Shown: positions 29,225 through 62,223 of the stretch, one piece after another
How the letters are laid out: each line of letters starts with the position of its first letter
Numbering within the stretch: position 1 is the first letter of the stretch
Virus record (IMG/VR): IMGVR_UViG_3300001528_000425
Location: 171,560 to 235,559 of that record
Length of the DNA stretch: 64,000 nt
Origin: a virus
Lineage: Duplodnaviria; Caudoviricetes
Strand: one strand, 5' to 3'
The notes under the pieces: generated by a model
Database searches by the model: none
What the model saw: only the letters and a program-made list of their open reading frames with translations
Told to the model about the DNA's origin: nothing
Translations under genes and position numbers: made by a program

Positions 29225-31083
29225 CGTTATGTTCAAGAGAACGCGCTACTGTCCTCCCCGCGGCATGACCCGCTCCGCTGCAAGCTTTCCTTGCAGACCA
29301 GACTATATCTCCACCTTCACCATTACGTGGTCAGGTGCACTTCTATTTCCTCGCCGCTTGGCAAGTACAGGGTGGATCAGTCCCTTAGTCGTTGAACTCA
29401 CCTCATGTCGATATACAGGATATATCGATTTAGAGGGCAGCTGCGGATTACCCATTACAGCGATCGCGTCTAGAAAATCCCATCTAGTCGATCATCTCGA
29501 TTTCTTTTACCATACCCAGGTTAATTACTCCTGGCCCCACAGTAATCACGTTTCCGGCTGTGGTTGGTGTATCGAGCTTTAGTGGCTTCCCGTCAATTAA
29601 GAAGTGAATAGTTAAGCATTTCTGCTTAACCAGCCATCAAATCTTTGAGATAGTAAATGGATCTGAAGGTTTACTGTATCGTAACGCTCGTTTGATAAAT
29701 TTCCTATCAACACCCAGCGCTTTCGCAGCTTCCCTCAGCGAATGAAACGTGCGTTCTTCTCCAGTTGCTTTATCAACAACCTTCATCTGAACGTTCTTGA
29801 ACTTGTTTTGTAAAACAGTGGTTGGCCATGCATGAGATGACTTGAACCTAACCCGGAACCGCCCGATCATCTTCTTTCCACCAGTCTTCGCTGCTAAGAT
29901 CAAACTACAGCGAGAGATGCCAACATAAGCTGCAGCTTCTCTCTGGTTGTGAAACGACCGAACATCTCCGGTGTCAGTATCTAGAACTTGTATCACCTTA
30001 GGAACACACTGATCCGTATAGGTAGCAGTATATCCAGGATAACGCGCTTCGAACTCTTCGATCGTCTCCCGTACCGACTTGCAGATATTCCACAAACCGA
30101 AATACTTGACGAACGTTCGAACCCCGTTGAACACAAGTTCCTTACCATCTGGATCAACGACTGTGATGATGTACCTAGATGGTTCCACGTTCACAGTCGG
30201 TCGATCATAGACCCAAGGTCTAGTGTCACCTTCCACCCGTACTTCCCACTCTTCGTTGTACAATCGATTCCCTCTCCAGCTAGCCAATGTAGCAGCTTCA
30301 CGAGAACCTAACCCAAGATATGCTCTTGCTTGTGAGATACTGGGAAATTCTTTGATCTCTCCAGTTTTCGCACTTCTCAAGAAACACTTCGTGGTTGGAC
30401 GAAGGTTGTGGTTGATCGCATGGAGGTTGTTACCTCTGATCGTTGTCCATTCCAGATTACTTGCATGATTGTTAAACTTATTACCATCGAGATGGTTCAC
30501 GATAGTGTAGAAGCCTAACCTTGGGTTATGTACCCAAGCCATGGCAACGAGGATGTGTATCGCTTTACCAATTCGTTTCTGGATGATCGTGTCCATGACG
30601 AATACTTGACGGTATTGCCCACGCAAACCTACACTGAGATGTGCTCCAGTCTTCACATCGATCACGTCTCCATCTATGGAAACCGCAACCGAAGGATACT
30701 CTGGTACGATCCTGTACGTTTCGTCATACATGATCGGTGTCCTGAATTCCACAACATAAGGGAACTCCGGTCTCCGACTGTCCATCCTGCTGTGGAAGAA
30801 GACGTCATCCGGAACAACCGGTACGTATTCTCCCAACCCTAATCTGGAGATTAGGAACAACCATCGCCTGGATCGTTGTTGTGTTTTACAATACATTTCA
30901 ATTGAGACAAGATCTCCTGCCGTTGGCAGATTCACTTCTCTCTTGTTTTCATCAACAATCTTCAAACGGTTATTGATGAAAAGCTTTTCATTCGTTCCTG
31001 GTATCACGTAGTACATAGATTCCTCCGTTTTCAGATTCTATATAATAGTGTACCATCTTCCTTTTTACTTACCTCAAAACGAT
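29225..31083 (-). mobile_element. Group I intron in nvRNAP beta, carrying an HNH ORF
   Basis: Core P AATTGACGGGAA, Q AATCCGCAGC, R GTTCAACGACTA and S GATATAGTC within 29225-29640; splits GRDGx/KGVV; 5' boundary uncertain by about 2 nt. Confidence 0.9.
29637..31016 (-). CDS. Intron-encoded HNH homing endonuclease with NUMOD1-like repeats
   Basis: IHILVAMAW..VNHLDGNKFNNHASNLEW; repeated TGE..F.S..EAA motifs. Confidence 0.9.
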   Translation of the reverse strand: MYYVIPGTNEKLFINNRLKIVDENKREVNLPTAGDLVSIEMYCKTQQRSRRWLFLISRLGLGEYVPVVPDDVFFHSRMDSRRPEFPYVVEFRTPIMYDETYRIVPEYPSVAVSIDGDVIDVKTGAHLSVGLRGQYRQVFVMDTIIQKRIGKAIHILVAMAWVHNPRLGFYTIVNHLDGNKFNNHASNLEWTTIRGNNLHAINHNLRPTTKCFLRSAKTGEIKEFPSISQARAYLGLGSREAATLASWRGNRLYNEEWEVRVEGDTRPWVYDRPTVNVEPSRYIITVVDPDGKELVFNGVRTFVKYFGLWNICKSVRETIEEFEARYPGYTATYTDQCVPKVIQVLDTDTGDVRSFHNQREAAAYVGISRCSLILAAKTGGKKMIGRFRVRFKSSHAWPTTVLQNKFKNVQMKVVDKATGEERTFHSLREAAKALGVDRKFIKRALRYSKPSDPFTISKI

Positions 31084-56657: not shown

Positions 56658-56852
56658 TCAGTATCCTCCGACTACCAACGGATCTCCTTCACCTGCCAAC
56701 CAACGGTTGGCTGCAAGGGAATACTCGTTAGTGAGTTTCACATCGTTGGTTAAACTGTCTCCAGTTCCACCGAGCAATGTAGTCATCGGATGCACTGCCA
56801 TGAACTTGATGACCTCAGCCATCTCTTTCAGAGCAACCCCATAGATCTGATC
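56658..56852 (-). CDS. nvRNAP beta' (gp55-like) exon 4
   Basis: Starts DQIYGVAL after the intron terminal G, supplying the last Asp of NADFDGD. Confidence 0.85.
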   Translation of the reverse strand, partial: DQIYGVALKEMAEVIKFMAVHPMTTLLGGTGDSLTNDVKLTNEYSLAANRWLAGEGDPLVVGGY

Positions 56853-57389
56853 CATTGTGTTCACTGTGTTCGCTAATCACAGCAGTGTCGTTTCAGACAC
56901 ATCTCTAGCTTTCACTAGACGACCAGGTATATCCTGGAAGCGTGTATAATGATCCATATACACGGTGCAGACTATATCACCATCTCCTCATGATCGTATC
57001 TGTCCGAGTACCAGGATTCGAACCTGGGACGTTCTGCTCCCAAAGCAGACGCGCTACCACTGCGCTACACTCGGACAGATACTACCATCAAGGAGACCCC
57101 TACCGTTACGGGATCGCATGATCCCTCTCGATTTGATGACTCAAATACATTTAGTCGTTGGGCATTTAGGAACATCTCTGTTCCATTTAGCTGCTGAAGA
57201 CCCATTTGCTGATAACATCGTTGCTCAAATGCTATCAACTAGTCCTTAGGATTTAACCATAGACCATCTCCACACTTGTTTCTACTTTCGTTCCTATGCG
57301 ATAAGTTGCATAGGCAGTGGAGCTATTAGGGATTGCCAGCGATTAGATAAGTTTGCTACGCAGATCGCTCTACGTAGGGAGCAGATCAC
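56853..57389 (-). mobile_element. Group I intron 3 (ORF-less, tRNA-containing) splitting DFDG/D
   Basis: P1 GGAGT/GCTCC, P AATCGCTGGCAA, Q CTTCAGCAGC, R CAACGACTA, S GATATAGTC. Confidence 0.9.
57003..57074 (-). tRNA. tRNA-Pro(UGG) embedded in intron P8; no encoded CCA
   Basis: CCGAGTG/TACTCGG acceptor, GCGC D-stem, TCTGC-TTTGGGA-GCAGA anticodon arm, CCAGG-TTCGAAT-CCTGG T-arm. Confidence 0.92.
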
Positions 57390-57410
57390 TCCATCGAAGT
57401 CAGCATTAGG
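57390..57410 (-). CDS. nvRNAP beta' micro-exon 3 (PNADFDG)
   Basis: CCT AAT GCT GAC TTC GAT GGA between two intron cores. Confidence 0.9.
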
Positions 57411-58669
57411 CCTAATGGTCAAGTGGAATCGCAACTTCCACCGTGTGTGCTATGACACACCCTCAGTGTTTCCAAAGAGGAGCAGACTATATCAGACATC
57501 TCGAATATCACGTGTTTATCCGAGATCCTTCTCCGTTTCAGCATCCTTGCGGATGGTGGTAGCTTGTACCACACGCCATATGCTTGCGCCCTACGTCCCT
57601 GTTGGAACTAGTCGTTGAACACATCGTCTACATGAGACGACTTCGTTGCGATGATTGAGCCAATCCTTTTACTTTTTATATCCATCATAGCTTACCTCGC
57701 GGTTACTATTGTGGCTAAAAGGCTCTAAGGCTCTTCCCGCAATTAGAAGAAGTACGCACATCCTATCACTAAGATGTGGGCCCGGTGATTGTTTTATCAG
57801 TTTCCGAAGATCTTCGTTTCTTATACCTAGAATAATCAATTGGTGTTAAACGAATCGGTTTCTTATACGGAATGCCATATTGTTCAGCTATATGCCGATG
57901 TGTCCCGTGTGCAACGATATGTTGAATCGCTGTAACAGGAACATTCAACTCTCGACTAATTGCTGTCAATTTCATTCCATCCTGAATTCGTTTACATACC
58001 GCATGTACTTGCTCTTCTGTCATAGCTGACTTACGGAGCCCGTGTATCCTGGCATGTAGATGATTATCGTAAGCCGAACACCATTCCAAGTTATCAGCTG
58101 CATTGTTAGCTTTGTTGCCATCAGTGTGATTGACTTCTAATAACTTGTTAGGATTTGGTACGAACGCAAGAGCTACCAGTCGATGGATCTTCACCGACTT
58201 AAGTGATCCGGAACCTGTGTATCCGAATCTTAGATAAGTGCAGTAATAACCGCTGTTGTTTGGTGCTCCTGTTATCATCTGGTAGGTACGTTTGTTCCAT
58301 ATCCTACCATCCCGTAAGATGATGTAATTCGGGAATCCTAGACTCTCCAAACTACATTGATCTTCCGGAGGGATTTCCTTCAATTCATTGTGAAAATATT
58401 TCCGCCATAGATAATCCGTACTGAAAGTTTTAGACTTATTATCTTTCCATACGAATACAGTTGGTCCGAAATGTTTTAATTCTCGACCACTACGTTCATC
58501 TACAACGGTCTTATCTTCATAAAACCTGATGAAAGGATACCCTTCTTCTTCGAGTAATACTGATGCCTGTTGTTTCATTGCACTTCTTACCTCTGGCTTA
58601 TTAGAGTTAGGCTGTCTTCCGACAGCCCTCATCAAGCCTTCGGAAGACAGTGTGCAACGACAATCGTTG
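57411..58669 (-). mobile_element. Group I intron 2 with HNH ORF
   Basis: Canonical GCT|...G|CCT junction (SISA/PNADF); IGS GGCTG; P AATTGCGGGAA, R GTTCAACGACTA, S GATATAGTC. Confidence 0.9.
57769..58578 (-). CDS. Intron-encoded HNH homing endonuclease
   Basis: IHRLVALAFVPNP..VNHTDGNKANNAADNLEW and C-terminal HTH; start reassigned to MKQQA. Confidence 0.88.
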   Translation of the reverse strand: MKQQASVLLEEEGYPFIRFYEDKTVVDERSGRELKHFGPTVFVWKDNKSKTFSTDYLWRKYFHNELKEIPPEDQCSLESLGFPNYIILRDGRIWNKRTYQMITGAPNNSGYYCTYLRFGYTGSGSLKSVKIHRLVALAFVPNPNKLLEVNHTDGNKANNAADNLEWCSAYDNHLHARIHGLRKSAMTEEQVHAVCKRIQDGMKLTAISRELNVPVTAIQHIVAHGTHRHIAEQYGIPYKKPIRLTPIDYSRYKKRRSSETDKTITGPTS

Positions 58670-58775
58670 AGCTGAAATGCTGAGCGGAGATAACCCAATA
58701 GAGTCATCTTCGATCTCTGGTTTGATCTTCGTTGCAAAGAAGAGTTGTATGGCTCCATGTCGCAACGTTGGATTT
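58670..58775 (-). CDS. nvRNAP beta' exon 2
   Basis: NPTLRHGAIQLFFATKIKPEIEDDSIGLSPLSISA (cf. RxPTL..SIQ); 5' boundary uncertain by 1-3 nt. Confidence 0.88.
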
Positions 58776-59168
58776 TGCAGTGTTCGGCGTAGGCGCTAAC
58801 TACACCCGCATCGTTTCAGATACTGCTCCGCCTTTCGGTCGGACGACCAGGTATATCCTGGAAGAACTCTTGCGAGTTGGCCAGACTAGCTCATCACCAC
58901 ATCCCTTATGAGACAAGGTGTGTAACGTTTGGAGCCCGCTTGGTGCTCTACTCTCCGTCCGTAGATAGGAGATAGTCGTTGAACTACCGTTAGGTAGCTG
59001 CTGAAGACCCACTGCCTAGTCCATTTAGGATTTAACCTTGTGGACATCCGTATACTTGTTTCTACTTTCGTCACTCAACCAGCTAAGGTTAAGCTACACG
59101 GCTTTAGGGATTGCCAGCAATTGGTTACATGATCGATCCTGCTTTCGCAAGAAAGGGAGCTATCCTTA
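58776..59168 (-). mobile_element. Group I intron 1 (ORF-less)
   Basis: P1 GGGAGT/GCTCCC, P AATTGCTGGCAA, Q CTTCAGCAGC, R GTTCAACGACTA, S-like GCTAGTC; paralogous to intron 3. Confidence 0.88.
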
Positions 59169-60397
59169 CTCCCGAGTAAAACAGGCAGACCCTTGTAAGG
59201 GCATTCATCCATCAGTCTCTGGATCACATCGTACACATCCTGATCGAACTCTACCAATGCCCTCGCATGCTTCTCATAAGCATCCGGATAGGACATGTGA
59301 TAATGCCGAACAAGGAAGTTGATGATCTCCAGCTTCCACTGGGCAACGCCGATCCTCCATGGGAGGTGACATTCATCTGCCTTGTGTTCTGTTACGATCG
59401 GAACGATAACAGCACGGAATGTGTTGTTCAACCTCGAAGCCAACAGGGATTTCCGGATGAACCCATATTTGCTGACCAACTTGATCTTGGTGATCTTCTC
59501 AACATAGTTGAGATAAGATTTGTACACGTTGTAGCTGTACTGCTCCAAGTAGTTTCGGTTGGCTGCACTATGAGCGATTGGGTTATGCCTGTAGTTGTAG
59601 ATCGCGCTGGATAACTCGATACATGTTTCGAGGATGGACGTAGACACATCGTCGTTGTAGGTCAACGTTCCACTCTTGGTCAAGATATGCAGAGCTTGAT
59701 TCAGTACCGGAACATGTCTGATGAACATTACGTTCCTGTACGTATCCACGAATTCCTTGATGAACAAGTTCTTCTTGGATTTGGCTCCGGTGTTTTGGTT
59801 GAGGAAATAGTTGATGATGTTATCGAAGTTCTCGTAGAAATAGGCTGGACCTTGTCCCAAGATACTGCCATAGGGTTCTGGAAGTTCACTGTCAACATCG
59901 AGGAGAAGATCGATGATCTTCTTCTTGCGTTTGACGCAACCCATCCATTTACCCAAGATCCGATAAGCTGCAGGATGCAGCATCGGAGGCATGAACTCTG
60001 GGATCTCCAGCCATGCACGGAACTTGATCTCATCTGCGAAGGCGTCGCGAACTTCCGTGTTGCAATATGGACAGATCGTACCTTTGGCGAAGTTACCTTT
60101 GGTTCGTTCACATTTGCAACTGGCGATGAAGTTCAAGTTGCTGTCGCTCTCTTGGAACAACATCTTCTTGATCGTCTCGATAGAGTTGTTCGCGACGTCT
60201 ACACCGTCCAACTCTTGGCCACATGGAACGATCATCGCATTCGGATCTTGATGGAATTCCCTATCGAAATCGAACAACCGTAACTTCGTCACGGTTGCAT
60301 GTTTCTTTGGGTTACACCATCGATCCGATGAGGCGTAATACGCCCTGACGATCGCTTCTGCGTCAACGTTCGGCTTGAATATACTACTGAACCACAT
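59169..60397 (-). CDS. nvRNAP beta' N-terminal subunit (phiKZ gp55-like) exon 1
   Basis: AGGAGG RBS at MWFSS; zinc site CKC..CPYC, KYGFIRK, RAVIVP; ends GLPVLLG. Confidence 0.88.
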
Positions 60398-60481: not shown

Positions 60482-60624
60482 AGGAATAGGCAGGACTCGA
60501 ACCTGCACCAGTTGCTATCGCTAACAACCGACTTGTCATTCTCCGAGCTTAAGGTGTATATCTCGGGATTCTCCAAGTATCCGGGGGACCGGCCCAGCAC
60601 TCTATCCAGTTGAGTTACTATTCC
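60482..60624 (-). ncRNA. tRNA-like RNA with ~75-nt expanded variable region
   Basis: GGAATAG/CTATTCC acceptor, ACTC-AACTGGATA-GAGT D-arm, GCAGG-TTCGAGT-CCTGC T-arm, non-canonical anticodon loop. Confidence 0.8.
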
Positions 60625-60639
60625 AAGTTAGAACTTAGC

Positions 60640-62223
60640 TTACCAGCCGAAGTTGTTGCCGTTCCAGCTGTTCACGCCACCAGCCGTGGTGAAGCTGTTG
60701 AAGCCCTGGTAGTTGTTCGCGCCGCTGGTGAGCAGCGAGCTGATGTTGTAGCTCGCCTGCTGGTTGTTGAAGTCGTATTCGATACGAACCACATTGCGGA
60801 TCGCGTTGGCCACCGTGTTGACGAAGTCCGGCCGGAGGACCAGACGCATCGTGAGGTAGAGCGACTGCGTGGTGTTCGGATACCACTTCTGGACCTGAGC
60901 GATGCCGCTCGACATGTCGGTCGGCTGCTGCAGGAACCCACCGAGTTCCTCGACGTTCGGGATGTCCTTGGCCATCCGCAGATAATCGATGCACCGAGTG
61001 TCGATCGTCTGGGTGGAGCCGAGGGTGACCTGCCCATCGAACTGCGGATACCTGGCGATGGCCGGATCGACTGCCGCGAGCTGCTGGCCGGAGAAGGTGC
61101 TGAGCGCGTTGATGATGGTCGCCGGATCATTGATCAGACGGTCGATCATCGGGTTGCGGAAGCGACCTTCCTGGATATCGAGCGCCAGGAACGGCATGGT
61201 GGAGTTCAGGTAGTTGCGCATGAACTCATCACGCTGCTGCTGGTTGCGGGCGATCCACGGCTTCTTGGTTTCCGGGTCGAGGATCAGGCGGCCGATGTTG
61301 TATCCGTTCTCGCTGTAGTCGTTGAACTGGTTGAGCCAGCCGTACTGCATGATGAACGCATCCATCGCGATGGAGAGGCCGATGGCCAGGGTCGGAGCCG
61401 TGAGCAGATCGGCGACGATGTCAGTGATGACAGTCATCGGCGAATACTTCGTGGTGCCGAACTGGACGTTGCCGGGAGCGATGCTGGCGTTGGCGGTCAG
61501 GTAGAACTTGGTGTAACCGGTGACGGCGATCAGCGGGATCAGATCGTACTGCGCACGCTGGTCGAAGGTCGTGGTAACGCCGGCCTTGCGGACCTTGGCG
61601 TACACCAGGAACCCGACATCGTCACGGGCCGGCACGGCGTGCGGGCTGTGGACGTCGATGAACGAACGAACTTTCTGCATGTCGCTGGTGACAGCGTATT
61701 CGGTACCGCCGTACTGTTTCGCAGTCATGTTGACGAGACGGGGCTCGGTCAGAGAGCGGAACAGGTTGATGATGGCAGCGCCGGCGCGATCGACACGGGG
61801 ATACATTTCCTTGGTGACAACGATCACCTGGGTGATCTCCGCATCGGAGACGGCGAGTGCGAACTTCTGGCGGATTTCCTTCGCCATGCAGGCCGGGGGA
61901 CGAGCGTCGATGCTGTTGTAGCTTTCAGCGAACAACAGGGCGACGGCGACTTTGCCGGCATGGAAGACGTGGCATTCGTAGCTCGGGGACGCGATGCGTT
62001 CGACCTTCGCAGCCGGAACGGCTTTGACGAGACGTTCGAGGATGGTCTCACTGTAGAGCTTCCCCTCGTTGGAGAGATGGGTCGGGGTTTCGAGAGCCAG
62101 GTTCATCAGCTCAACCACGCCCAGCGGCTGAACCGGACCATCCGCCTGCGCAGTACCGATACCGGCGCCACGGTTCTGGTCATCGAGACCTTCGATCACA
62201 ACGTTTCCGTTACTTCCACTCAT
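60640..62223 (-). CDS. chmA: Putative chimallin (phage nuclear shell protein)
   Basis: Immediately upstream of gp55-like beta' and divergent from a gp52-like gene; very strong codon bias, tandem early promoters, G/N/aromatic C-terminal tail; assignment rests mainly on synteny. Confidence 0.7.
   Translation of the reverse strand: MSGSNGNVVIEGLDDQNRGAGIGTAQADGPVQPLGVVELMNLALETPTHLSNEGKLYSETILERLVKAVPAAKVERIASPSYECHVFHAGKVAVALLFAESYNSIDARPPACMAKEIRQKFALAVSDAEITQVIVVTKEMYPRVDRAGAAIINLFRSLTEPRLVNMTAKQYGGTEYAVTSDMQKVRSFIDVHSPHAVPARDDVGFLVYAKVRKAGVTTTFDQRAQYDLIPLIAVTGYTKFYLTANASIAPGNVQFGTTKYSPMTVITDIVADLLTAPTLAIGLSIAMDAFIMQYGWLNQFNDYSENGYNIGRLILDPETKKPWIARNQQQRDEFMRNYLNSTMPFLALDIQEGRFRNPMIDRLINDPATIINALSTFSGQQLAAVDPAIARYPQFDGQVTLGSTQTIDTRCIDYLRMAKDIPNVEELGGFLQQPTDMSSGIAQVQKWYPNTTQSLYLTMRLVLRPDFVNTVANAIRNVVRIEYDFNNQQASYNISSLLTSGANNYQGFNSFTTAGGVNSWNGNNFGW

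What the first reader, a model, noticed from the sequence alone, without database searches (positions are those of the whole stretch)
56853..57389. Complete tRNA-Pro grafted onto P8 of the group I intron that splits the RNAP catalytic DFDG/D
Seen: a canonical 72-nt tRNA-Pro(UGG) cloverleaf (57003-57074) lies between intron elements R and S. Its acceptor stem continues without a break into an intron helix (GTATCTGT/ACAGATAC, then TCTCCT..AGGAGA = P8), and no CCA is encoded. The paralogous intron 1 has only a short P8 here. Established: group I introns commonly sit inside tRNA genes and usually carry endonuclease ORFs as cargo; I know of no phage intron carrying a tRNA. Inference: (a) the excised intron is a tRNA precursor, coupling tRNA supply to RNAP expression; (b) RNase P/Z cleavage of the pre-mRNA competes with or bisects splicing; or (c) the tRNA domain recruits a tRNA-binding protein as a splicing cofactor, as synthetases such as CYT-18 do.
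Basis: partly seen in the sequence, partly recalled or inferred. Interest (0 to 1): 0.92.

Follow-up and report, generated by a model that had tools for sequence, protein, structure and literature searches.

The report
tRNA gene riding inside phage intron
A nucleus-forming giant phage keeps its only proline tRNA gene inside a self-splicing intron of its RNA polymerase gene, and related phages show the same tRNA module sitting in different introns, which suggests that the spliced-out intron is reused as a tRNA precursor; I found no phage precedent in the papers I could search.

Summary
Confirmed. An intact tRNA-Pro(UGG) (57003-57074, minus strand; Rfam 68 bits) caps helix P8 of a group IA2-type intron that splits NADFDG|D in the non-virion RNAP beta' gene of a 235-kb chimallin-encoding phage. 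Its acceptor stem runs on into an 8-bp stalk and no CCA is encoded. It is not a one-off. A sister species (66% beta' identity) has a divergent tRNA-Pro in P8 of the same intron. Its strains that lack this intron carry the tRNA in P8 of the neighbouring intron instead. In one strain that copy is broken by an HNH gene that brought a replacement tRNA-Pro with CCA. Across three alleles, 9 of 21 tRNA pairs vary, 8 on both sides, none broken; the anticodon and Pro identity bases are invariant. tRNA-less orthologous introns exist, so the tRNA is cargo, not part of the ribozyme. Best reading (0.55): a working tRNA released from the excised intron, with the stalk delaying RNase P/Z until after splicing. 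No RNA data could be obtained. Precedents exist in coral and fungal mitochondrial introns; I found none in phage. The scan's notes show no such case on other DNA.

The parts
57003..57074 (-). tRNA-Pro(UGG), 72 nt, C1-G72, A73, G37, no encoded CCA
56982..57097 (-). P8 domain: base helix 57091-57097/56982-56988, a middle helix, an 8-bp distal stalk 57075-57082/56996-57003 continuous with the acceptor stem, capped by the tRNA
56852..57388 (-). Group I intron C (IA2-type, no ORF) at the NADFDG|D site; the register 56853-57389 gives the same mRNA
57378..57392 (-). P1; the U.G wobble lies one base 3' of the frame-restoring 5' splice site
57152..57161 (-). R element (P7 5' strand, G-binding site)
56969..56978 (-). 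S element (P7 3' strand)
57110..57146 (-). P7.1 and P7.2 hairpins (IA2 hallmark)
57389..57410 (-). 22-nt micro-exon 3 (PNADFDG)
56658..56851 (-). Exon 4 (last Asp of DFDGD to the stop codon)
57411..58669 (-). Intron B with HNH ORF (57769-58560); short P8, no tRNA
58670..58775 (-). Exon 2
58776..59168 (-). Intron A, paralog of intron C, short P8
59169..60397 (-). Exon 1 of non-virion RNAP beta' N-terminal subunit (phiKZ gp55-like)
60640..62223 (-). Chimallin (nuclear shell protein) gene, context
   Evidence: AlphaFold model matches Goslar and 201phi2-1 chimallin, E 1e-16, probability 1.0

Best explanation
The tRNA is functional cargo and the intron is its host transcript. SHOWN (sequence): a tRNA-Pro(UGG) on a paired stalk replaces the P8 loop of an otherwise normal IA2 core; it is the only tRNA-Pro in the complete genome; in this clade the module occurs in two different beta' introns, one copy per genome at this locus, and is kept intact. 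INFERRED: (1) the beta' pre-mRNA is made beside the chimallin gene and the intron self-splices with the tRNA as a passive peripheral domain; (2) the stalk pairs the 5' leader to A73 and the trailer, which makes the intact pre-mRNA a poor substrate for RNase P and RNase Z, so splicing comes first; the nuclear shell may add spatial separation; (3) after excision the intron is nicked and trimmed by host nucleases, the stalk opens, RNase P makes the 5' end, RNase Z or exonucleases make the 3' end, and the host CCA-adding enzyme completes the tRNA (the phage has no such gene); (4) the tRNA supplements or replaces host tRNA-Pro. The module moves between introns by recombination in P8.
For: Same intron with a divergent tRNA-Pro in P8 in L254 and L258. 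L246-L249 lack that intron and carry an intact tRNA-Pro in P8 of the PNA|D intron, while L254/L258 have a short P8 there. Three alleles: 9 of 21 stem pairs vary, 8 on both sides, 0 broken; anticodon loop, C1-G72 and A73 invariant. Window vs L254: tRNA 79% identical, intron core 74-75%, stalk 43-45% yet fully paired. In L001 the resident copy lost its anticodon arm to an HNH insertion that carries an intact tRNA-Pro(UGG) with CCA; it is the only tRNA hit in that 92%-complete genome. G000 has only tRNA-Pro and tRNA-Gln. A relative without the intron copy (G002) has a tRNA-Pro(UGG) elsewhere, also on a 12-bp stalk without CCA. A sequestered leader blocks E. coli RNase P (PMC8925977); N-1:N73 pairing affects rate and site (PMC10465520); RNase Z plus CCA enzyme mature CCA-less tRNAs (PMC4919913). 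No CCA-enzyme gene in three genomes.
Against: No RNA evidence of any kind. The conserved unbroken stalk and missing CCA are equally what a permanently attached domain would look like, and no route that opens the stalk is shown. The three alleles may derive from different donor tRNA genes, so part of the covariation could predate the insertion. The comparison rests on two species and about four independent haplotypes. The L001 replacement may be hitch-hiking, because that HNH family normally sits right behind tRNA genes. CCA codons are not enriched (19.5% of Pro codons), so codon demand gives no motive. Splicing needs a non-canonical 5' splice site that is untested.
Confidence: 0.55

Rival explanations
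1. The tRNA stays attached and works as a tRNA mimic on the pre-mRNA or the stable excised intron: a decoy for host anticodon nucleases or tRNA-sensing defences, a protein-binding handle, or a stabiliser, like tRNAs in GOLLD linkers.
For: The stalk is continuous and strongly selected in place (8, 17-18 and 19 bp; 43-45% identity); CCA is never encoded in the grafted copies; G002 has a stalked tRNA-Pro at the head of about 850 nt of gene-free structured sequence; tRNAs occur in GOLLD linkers (10.1101/2024.12.08.627333). A decoy would also conserve the anticodon.
Against: C1-G72 and A73 matter for charging, which needs release (own knowledge of ProRS identity); in L001 the replacement copy has free ends and CCA.
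Confidence: 0.2
2. Neutral hitch-hiker: a tRNA gene fell into a tolerant loop and spreads with the intron or serves only as a target for tRNA-specific HNH cassettes.
For: P8 is a known insertion site (PMC6545197); tRNA-less alleles coexist in the same species; HNH homologs home next to tRNA genes.
Against: No broken pair in three alleles across species whose introns are only 74% identical; the tRNA is better conserved than the flanking stalk.
Confidence: 0.1
3. Regulatory switch: RNase P/Z cleavage of the pre-mRNA competes with splicing and tunes the amount of non-virion RNAP.
For: The tRNA is always in the last intron of an essential gene, next to the catalytic motif; RNase P measures from the elbow and is not sequence-specific (PMC4919913).
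Against: The paired leader should inhibit cleavage; the P8 base would still be paired after a cut; the giant P8 insertion of coral ND5-717 does not prevent splicing; the shell gene suggests separation from host enzymes.
Confidence: 0.08
4. Splicing aid: the tRNA domain recruits ProRS or another tRNA-binding protein that stabilises the core, in the manner of CYT-18.
For: The window intron has a C.A mismatch in P4 and a GU-rich P3, so it may be a weak folder.
Against: Orthologs L003 and L257 lack the tRNA; the PNA|D intron occurs with and without it at 249/257 and 86/92 identity on either side; L001 tolerates about 680 nt inserted in the anticodon arm. CYT-18 binds P4-P6, not P8 (own knowledge).
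Confidence: 0.06
5. Assembly artefact.
For: Metagenomic record; no reads could be laid; the second assembly of this genome (L005) ends before the intron.
Against: Both junctions pair with each other; the same architecture occurs in at least six other assemblies with different sequence.
Confidence: 0.01

Closest known systems
Phage group IA2 introns (T4 td/nrdB/nrdD, Twort; phiKZ gp55/gp56.1 RNAP intron)
   Same: P3-P9 core, P7.1/P7.2, insertion next to the RNAP catalytic motif (phiKZ: PN|ADFDGD with HNH gp56), cargo placed in a peripheral loop (PMC3984707).
   Different: Cargo is a tRNA, not an endonuclease ORF; the site is DFDG|D; the 5' splice site is a G-C pair one base before the U.G wobble.
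Hexacoral mitochondrial ND5-717 group I intron (PMC6545197)
   Same: Host genes, including one tRNA gene in corallimorpharians, are carried inside P8.
   Different: There P8 holds 2 to 16 whole genes over up to 19 kb, the intron is obligatory and is removed by back-splicing; here a single tRNA is the helical cap of P8, optional and mobile between introns, in a phage mRNA.
Intron-encoded tRNAs of fungal mitochondria, e.g. Ophiostoma minus atp6-i1 tRNA-Ile (PMC7902536)
   Same: A putative tRNA gene inside a mobile intron of a protein gene.
   Different: It follows a LAGLIDADG ORF; no P8 graft, conservation or processing was described in the passages read; organelle, not phage.
GOLLD RNA with tRNA in its linker (10.1101/2024.12.08.627333)
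   Same: A phage tRNA covalently embedded in a larger structured RNA.
   Different: GOLLD is a non-catalytic cage RNA, not an intron in an essential gene.
Group I introns inside tRNA genes (Azoarcus tRNA-Ile, cyanobacterial tRNA-Leu)
   Same: Both components are the same kinds of RNA.
   Different: Opposite topology: there the intron splits the tRNA; here the tRNA sits whole in the intron.
Intron-hosted snoRNAs and MALAT1 mascRNA of eukaryotes (own knowledge)
   Same: Works like: a small RNA released from an intron or a long transcript by general nucleases; mascRNA is cut by RNase P/Z and gets CCA.
   Different: No homology; spliceosomal or lncRNA context.

Membership tests
Group I intron (RF00028) | P3, P4, P6, P7, P8 core with P, Q, R, S in order | tested here: met
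   All located; P3 covaries among four orthologs; P7 invariant; one C.A mismatch in P4 of the window copy
Group I intron (RF00028) | Rfam gathering score of 50 bits | tested here: inconclusive
   Window copy 25.8 bits, E 0.002; ortholog L254/L258 58.6 bits; L257 38.1
Group I intron (RF00028) | Terminal omega-G and restoration of the host reading frame | tested here: met
   Both equivalent registers end in G and restore NADFDGD
Group I intron (RF00028) | 5' splice site after the U of a U.G pair in P1 | tested here: not met
   Cutting after that U gives a frameshift or DFDGV; the frame needs a cut one base earlier, at a G-C pair; the same holds in L003, L254, L257. This lowers 'canonical', not 'group I'.
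Group I intron (RF00028) | Self-splicing with exogenous G | not testable with these tools
   No RNA data
Subgroup IA2 | P7.1 and P7.2 between P7 and P3 | tested here: met
   57131-57146 and 57110-57125; subgroup rule from own knowledge
Bacterial-type tRNA-Pro(UGG) | Cloverleaf with 7/4/5/5-bp stems, G18G19, T-loop consensus | tested here: met
   68.2 bits; all 21 pairs formed
Bacterial-type tRNA-Pro(UGG) | G35, G36, G37, C1-G72, A73 (identity set from own knowledge) | tested here: met
   Present in all three intron-borne alleles
Bacterial-type tRNA-Pro(UGG) | Mature free ends, CCA and aminoacylation | not testable with these tools
   CCA not encoded; no phage CCA enzyme; no RNA data
Homing-endonuclease-carrying intron | Endonuclease ORF in the intron | tested here: not met
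   No ORF in intron C; neighbouring intron B has an HNH
Nucleus-forming (chimallin-encoding) phage | Chimallin gene upstream of the gp55-like beta' gene | tested here: met
   Foldseek to PDB chimallins, E 1e-16; same gene order as phiKZ gp54-gp55

The most novel reading that the evidence does not exclude
A stalk-mounted tRNA-Pro module moves between group I introns of an essential RNAP gene and makes self-splicing the obligatory route to the phage's only tRNA-Pro: a prokaryotic-virus counterpart of intron-hosted small RNAs, with the stalk acting as a lock that orders splicing before tRNA maturation, and with the useful cargo turning a selfish intron into one the phage cannot easily lose.
Probability: 0.4. 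Interest if true: 0.85.

Novelty: new variant of a known kind. Interest (0 to 1): 0.72.

Why it matters
Phage group I introns are known to carry endonuclease genes only. A conserved, apparently selected tRNA as cargo would show that excised ribozymes can be precursors of a working housekeeping RNA in a bacterial virus. It gives a compact, cloneable 537-nt system, with natural plus and minus alleles at 97% identity, to ask three open questions: whether introns benefit their phage hosts, why phages carry tRNAs, and where RNA processing happens relative to the phage nucleus. It also matters for annotation and engineering: tRNA finders call this gene without noticing the intron, and P8 is shown to tolerate a tRNA scaffold.

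Tried and rejected
blastn of the intron against GenBank phages found only ordinary tRNA-Pro genes. About 115 related phage introns pulled by a P5-region pattern: none has a tRNA between R and S. Three patterns for a T arm followed by an S element in viral contigs (checked) and one in prokaryote genomes gave only L001's contig, tRNA clusters whose next tRNA resembles S, chance hits, and three tRNA-Asn introns with a duplicated tRNA 3' part in P8. A pattern for the graft junction found only L001's contig. These are exact-pattern scans and miss divergent cases. Chimeric origin by simple crossover between introns B and C was rejected: the tRNA-bearing PNA|D intron has its own 3' end. Codon demand rejected as motive. 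No sigma-70 promoter inside the intron; phage promoters were not tested. Sequence searches failed to identify chimallin; the fold search did. Literature searches for a phage precedent found none; subscription journals are poorly covered. The anticodon-loop pattern search was uninformative. The count of structure pairs failed on a length slip; pairs were counted by script. A first pairing-probability run had an index error, corrected.

Full report
Setting. The window is the last 64 kb of a 235,559-bp virus record with terminal repeats, rated complete. The host gene lies on the minus strand from 60397 to 56658. Exon 1 matches the non-virion RNAP beta' N-terminal subunit of phiKZ-like phages at 22-28% identity. 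The gene upstream folds as chimallin (Foldseek E 1e-16), the same order as phiKZ gp54-gp55. Three introns (A, B with an HNH ORF, C) interrupt the gene. Joining four exons gives 516 aa with GRNPTL and NADFDGD intact, as in uninterrupted homologs.

The observation. ARAGORN and Rfam both call tRNA-Pro(UGG) at 57003-57074 (68.2 bits). Rfam's group I model covers 56954-57381 and treats the tRNA as an insert in P8. By hand, P1, P2 with a GNRA loop, P3, P4-P6, P7, P7.1, P7.2, P8 and a long P9 region are all present. P8 consists of a 7-bp base, a short middle helix and an 8-bp helix that continues into the acceptor stem through a U-1:A73 pair, at pairing probability near 1. No CCA follows A73. Among 108 distinct tRNA genes in my fetched loci, extensions of 8 bp or more occur only here and in three relatives; all others have 3 bp or fewer. 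The intron boundaries can be written as 56853-57389 or 56852-57388 with the same product.

Orthologs with and without the tRNA. The same intron, at the same site, occurs in L257 (70% exon identity) and L003 (61%) with a short P8 hairpin and no tRNA. P3 covaries among the four orthologs and P7 is invariant. So the tRNA is not part of the ribozyme core. In a sister species at 66% exon identity, L254 and L258 carry this intron with a different tRNA-Pro(UGG) capping P8 on a 17-18-bp unbroken stalk, again without CCA; this ortholog passes Rfam's gathering score (58.6 bits).

The module changes introns. Other strains of that species (L246-L249; 99% exon identity to L254) lack the DFDG|D intron. In them a third tRNA-Pro(UGG) allele caps P8 of the intron one site upstream (PNA|D), on a 19-bp stalk; L245 shows the same up to its contig end. 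In L254/L258 that upstream intron has a short P8 and is 249/257 and 86/92 identical on the two sides of P8. Each genome thus has one copy at this locus, in the last intron. The four bases on each side of the graft are shared, which points to one origin. These loci amount to two species and about four independent haplotypes, so the exclusion pattern is suggestive, not statistical.

Signs of selection. Across the three alleles 9 of 21 tRNA stem pairs differ, 8 by changes on both sides, and none is broken; the anticodon loop, C1-G72 and A73 do not change. Between the window and L254 the tRNA is 79% identical, the intron core 74-75% and the stalk 43-45%, yet the stalk stays fully paired. The stalk covariation must have arisen in place. 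The tRNA covariation could partly come from different donor genes. In L001 the grafted tRNA has lost its anticodon arm to an insertion of about 680 nt that holds an HNH gene and, in front of it, an intact tRNA-Pro(UGG) with CCA and free ends. That is the only tRNA hit in the 92%-complete genome. Homologs of this HNH lie directly behind tRNA genes in Bacillus and Pseudomonas phages, so the cassette is a known type of tRNA-associated endonuclease, and its replacement tRNA may be either selected or carried along. The window's genome has only tRNA-Pro and tRNA-Gln. A more distant relative with no tRNA in these introns (G002) has a divergent tRNA-Pro(UGG) near its tRNA-Gln, also on a 12-bp stalk without CCA, at the head of about 850 nt of gene-free structured sequence.

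Mechanism. Shown: anatomy, distribution, conservation. Inferred: the intron splices with the tRNA as a passive domain. E. coli RNase P is blocked when the seven leader bases are held in a helix (PMC8925977), and N-1:N73 pairing alters rate and site (PMC10465520). The stalk pairs at least eight leader bases, so the pre-mRNA should resist cleavage. After excision, nicking and trimming of the intron would open the stalk; RNase P, RNase Z and the CCA-adding enzyme then act as on any CCA-less tRNA (PMC4919913). The phage has no CCA enzyme, so the host must supply it. CCA-less phage tRNA-Pro has a precedent in T4 (own knowledge). The nuclear shell could separate splicing from host nucleases (inference). 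I put this at 0.55. The main rival (0.2) is that the tRNA never leaves and acts as a mimic or decoy, which explains the stalk and the missing CCA just as well. A neutral insertion (0.1), a cleavage-versus-splicing switch (0.08) and a CYT-18-like aid (0.06) fit less well, for the reasons listed under rivals.

A caveat on splicing. P1 places its U.G pair one base 3' of the only junction that keeps the frame and the last Asp. This holds in all four orthologs and in paralogs at the HG|A site, where the last intron base would be A. The pattern is conserved and independent of the tRNA, and other notes of this scan saw it too, but it is untested.

Comparison with the known. Phage introns carry endonuclease ORFs in loops (PMC3984707). 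Coral ND5-717 carries genes, including one tRNA gene, in P8 (PMC6545197). Ophiostoma mitochondria have putative intron-encoded tRNAs (PMC7902536). GOLLD RNAs sometimes hold tRNAs in a linker (10.1101/2024.12.08.627333). I found no paper on a tRNA inside a phage or bacterial group I intron, none among about 115 related phage introns, and none by pattern scans outside this clade. The scan's earlier notes cover the reverse topology.

Verdict. Real, conserved and clade-restricted. It is a member of group I (IA2-type, with a non-canonical 5' splice site) and a new variant in its cargo. Interest 0.72; about 0.85 if a charged tRNA is shown to depend on splicing.

Noticed in passing
window 57378-57392 and 59153-59172; L003, L254, L257, L245; L028, L083, L092, L108: A family of phage group I introns whose frame-restoring 5' splice site lies at a G-C pair one base before the conserved U.G wobble; members at the HG|A and GR|N sites would also end in A instead of G.
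   Followed up: partly
window 58776-59168: Intron A sits at GR|NP, whereas its closest relatives in the sister species sit at HG|A, 18 nt downstream; both targets end in the same four bases, which suggests a move to a new site by IGS matching.
   Followed up: partly
window 60482-60624 (minus): tRNA-framed RNA (acceptor, D and T arms; Rfam 39.3 bits) with no normal anticodon arm and about 70 extra nt, between chimallin and beta'; absent at this place in L001, L245 and L257.
   Followed up: partly
L001 9768-10503: tRNA inside a broken tRNA inside an intron: a tRNA-Pro(UGG)-CCA plus HNH cassette has replaced the anticodon arm of the grafted tRNA.
   Followed up: yes
L266 (G002) about 1920-2780, minus: Stalked, CCA-less tRNA-Pro followed by about 850 nt of gene-free, highly folded sequence that ends in a T-arm-like hairpin and CCA; no Rfam match; candidate large non-coding RNA.
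   Followed up: partly
L192, L230, L242: Group I introns (two of them seen inside tRNA-Asn genes; two of the three genomes are Patescibacteria) whose P8 contains a copy of a tRNA 3' part (T arm, acceptor strand, CCA); looks like an integration scar.
   Followed up: partly
L246-L249, L254, L257, L001 beta' gene: Extreme intron density: up to four group I introns within about 50 codons, micro-exons of 9-22 nt, and different intron sets in strains that are 99% identical in protein.
   Followed up: partly
window 56860-56945 and 58790-58865: Introns A and C share an extended multi-hairpin P9 region that is conserved in all orthologs and HG|A paralogs.
   Followed up: partly
window 29278-29664; G000 C1 35620-35990 and 167112-167447: Three more group I introns in this genome, none with a tRNA.
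   Followed up: partly
L282, L288, L289, L296 and others: Many phage tRNA genes begin with a sequence identical to the group I S element; this gave false hits and could offer micro-homology for recombination between tRNA clusters and introns (speculation).
   Followed up: no
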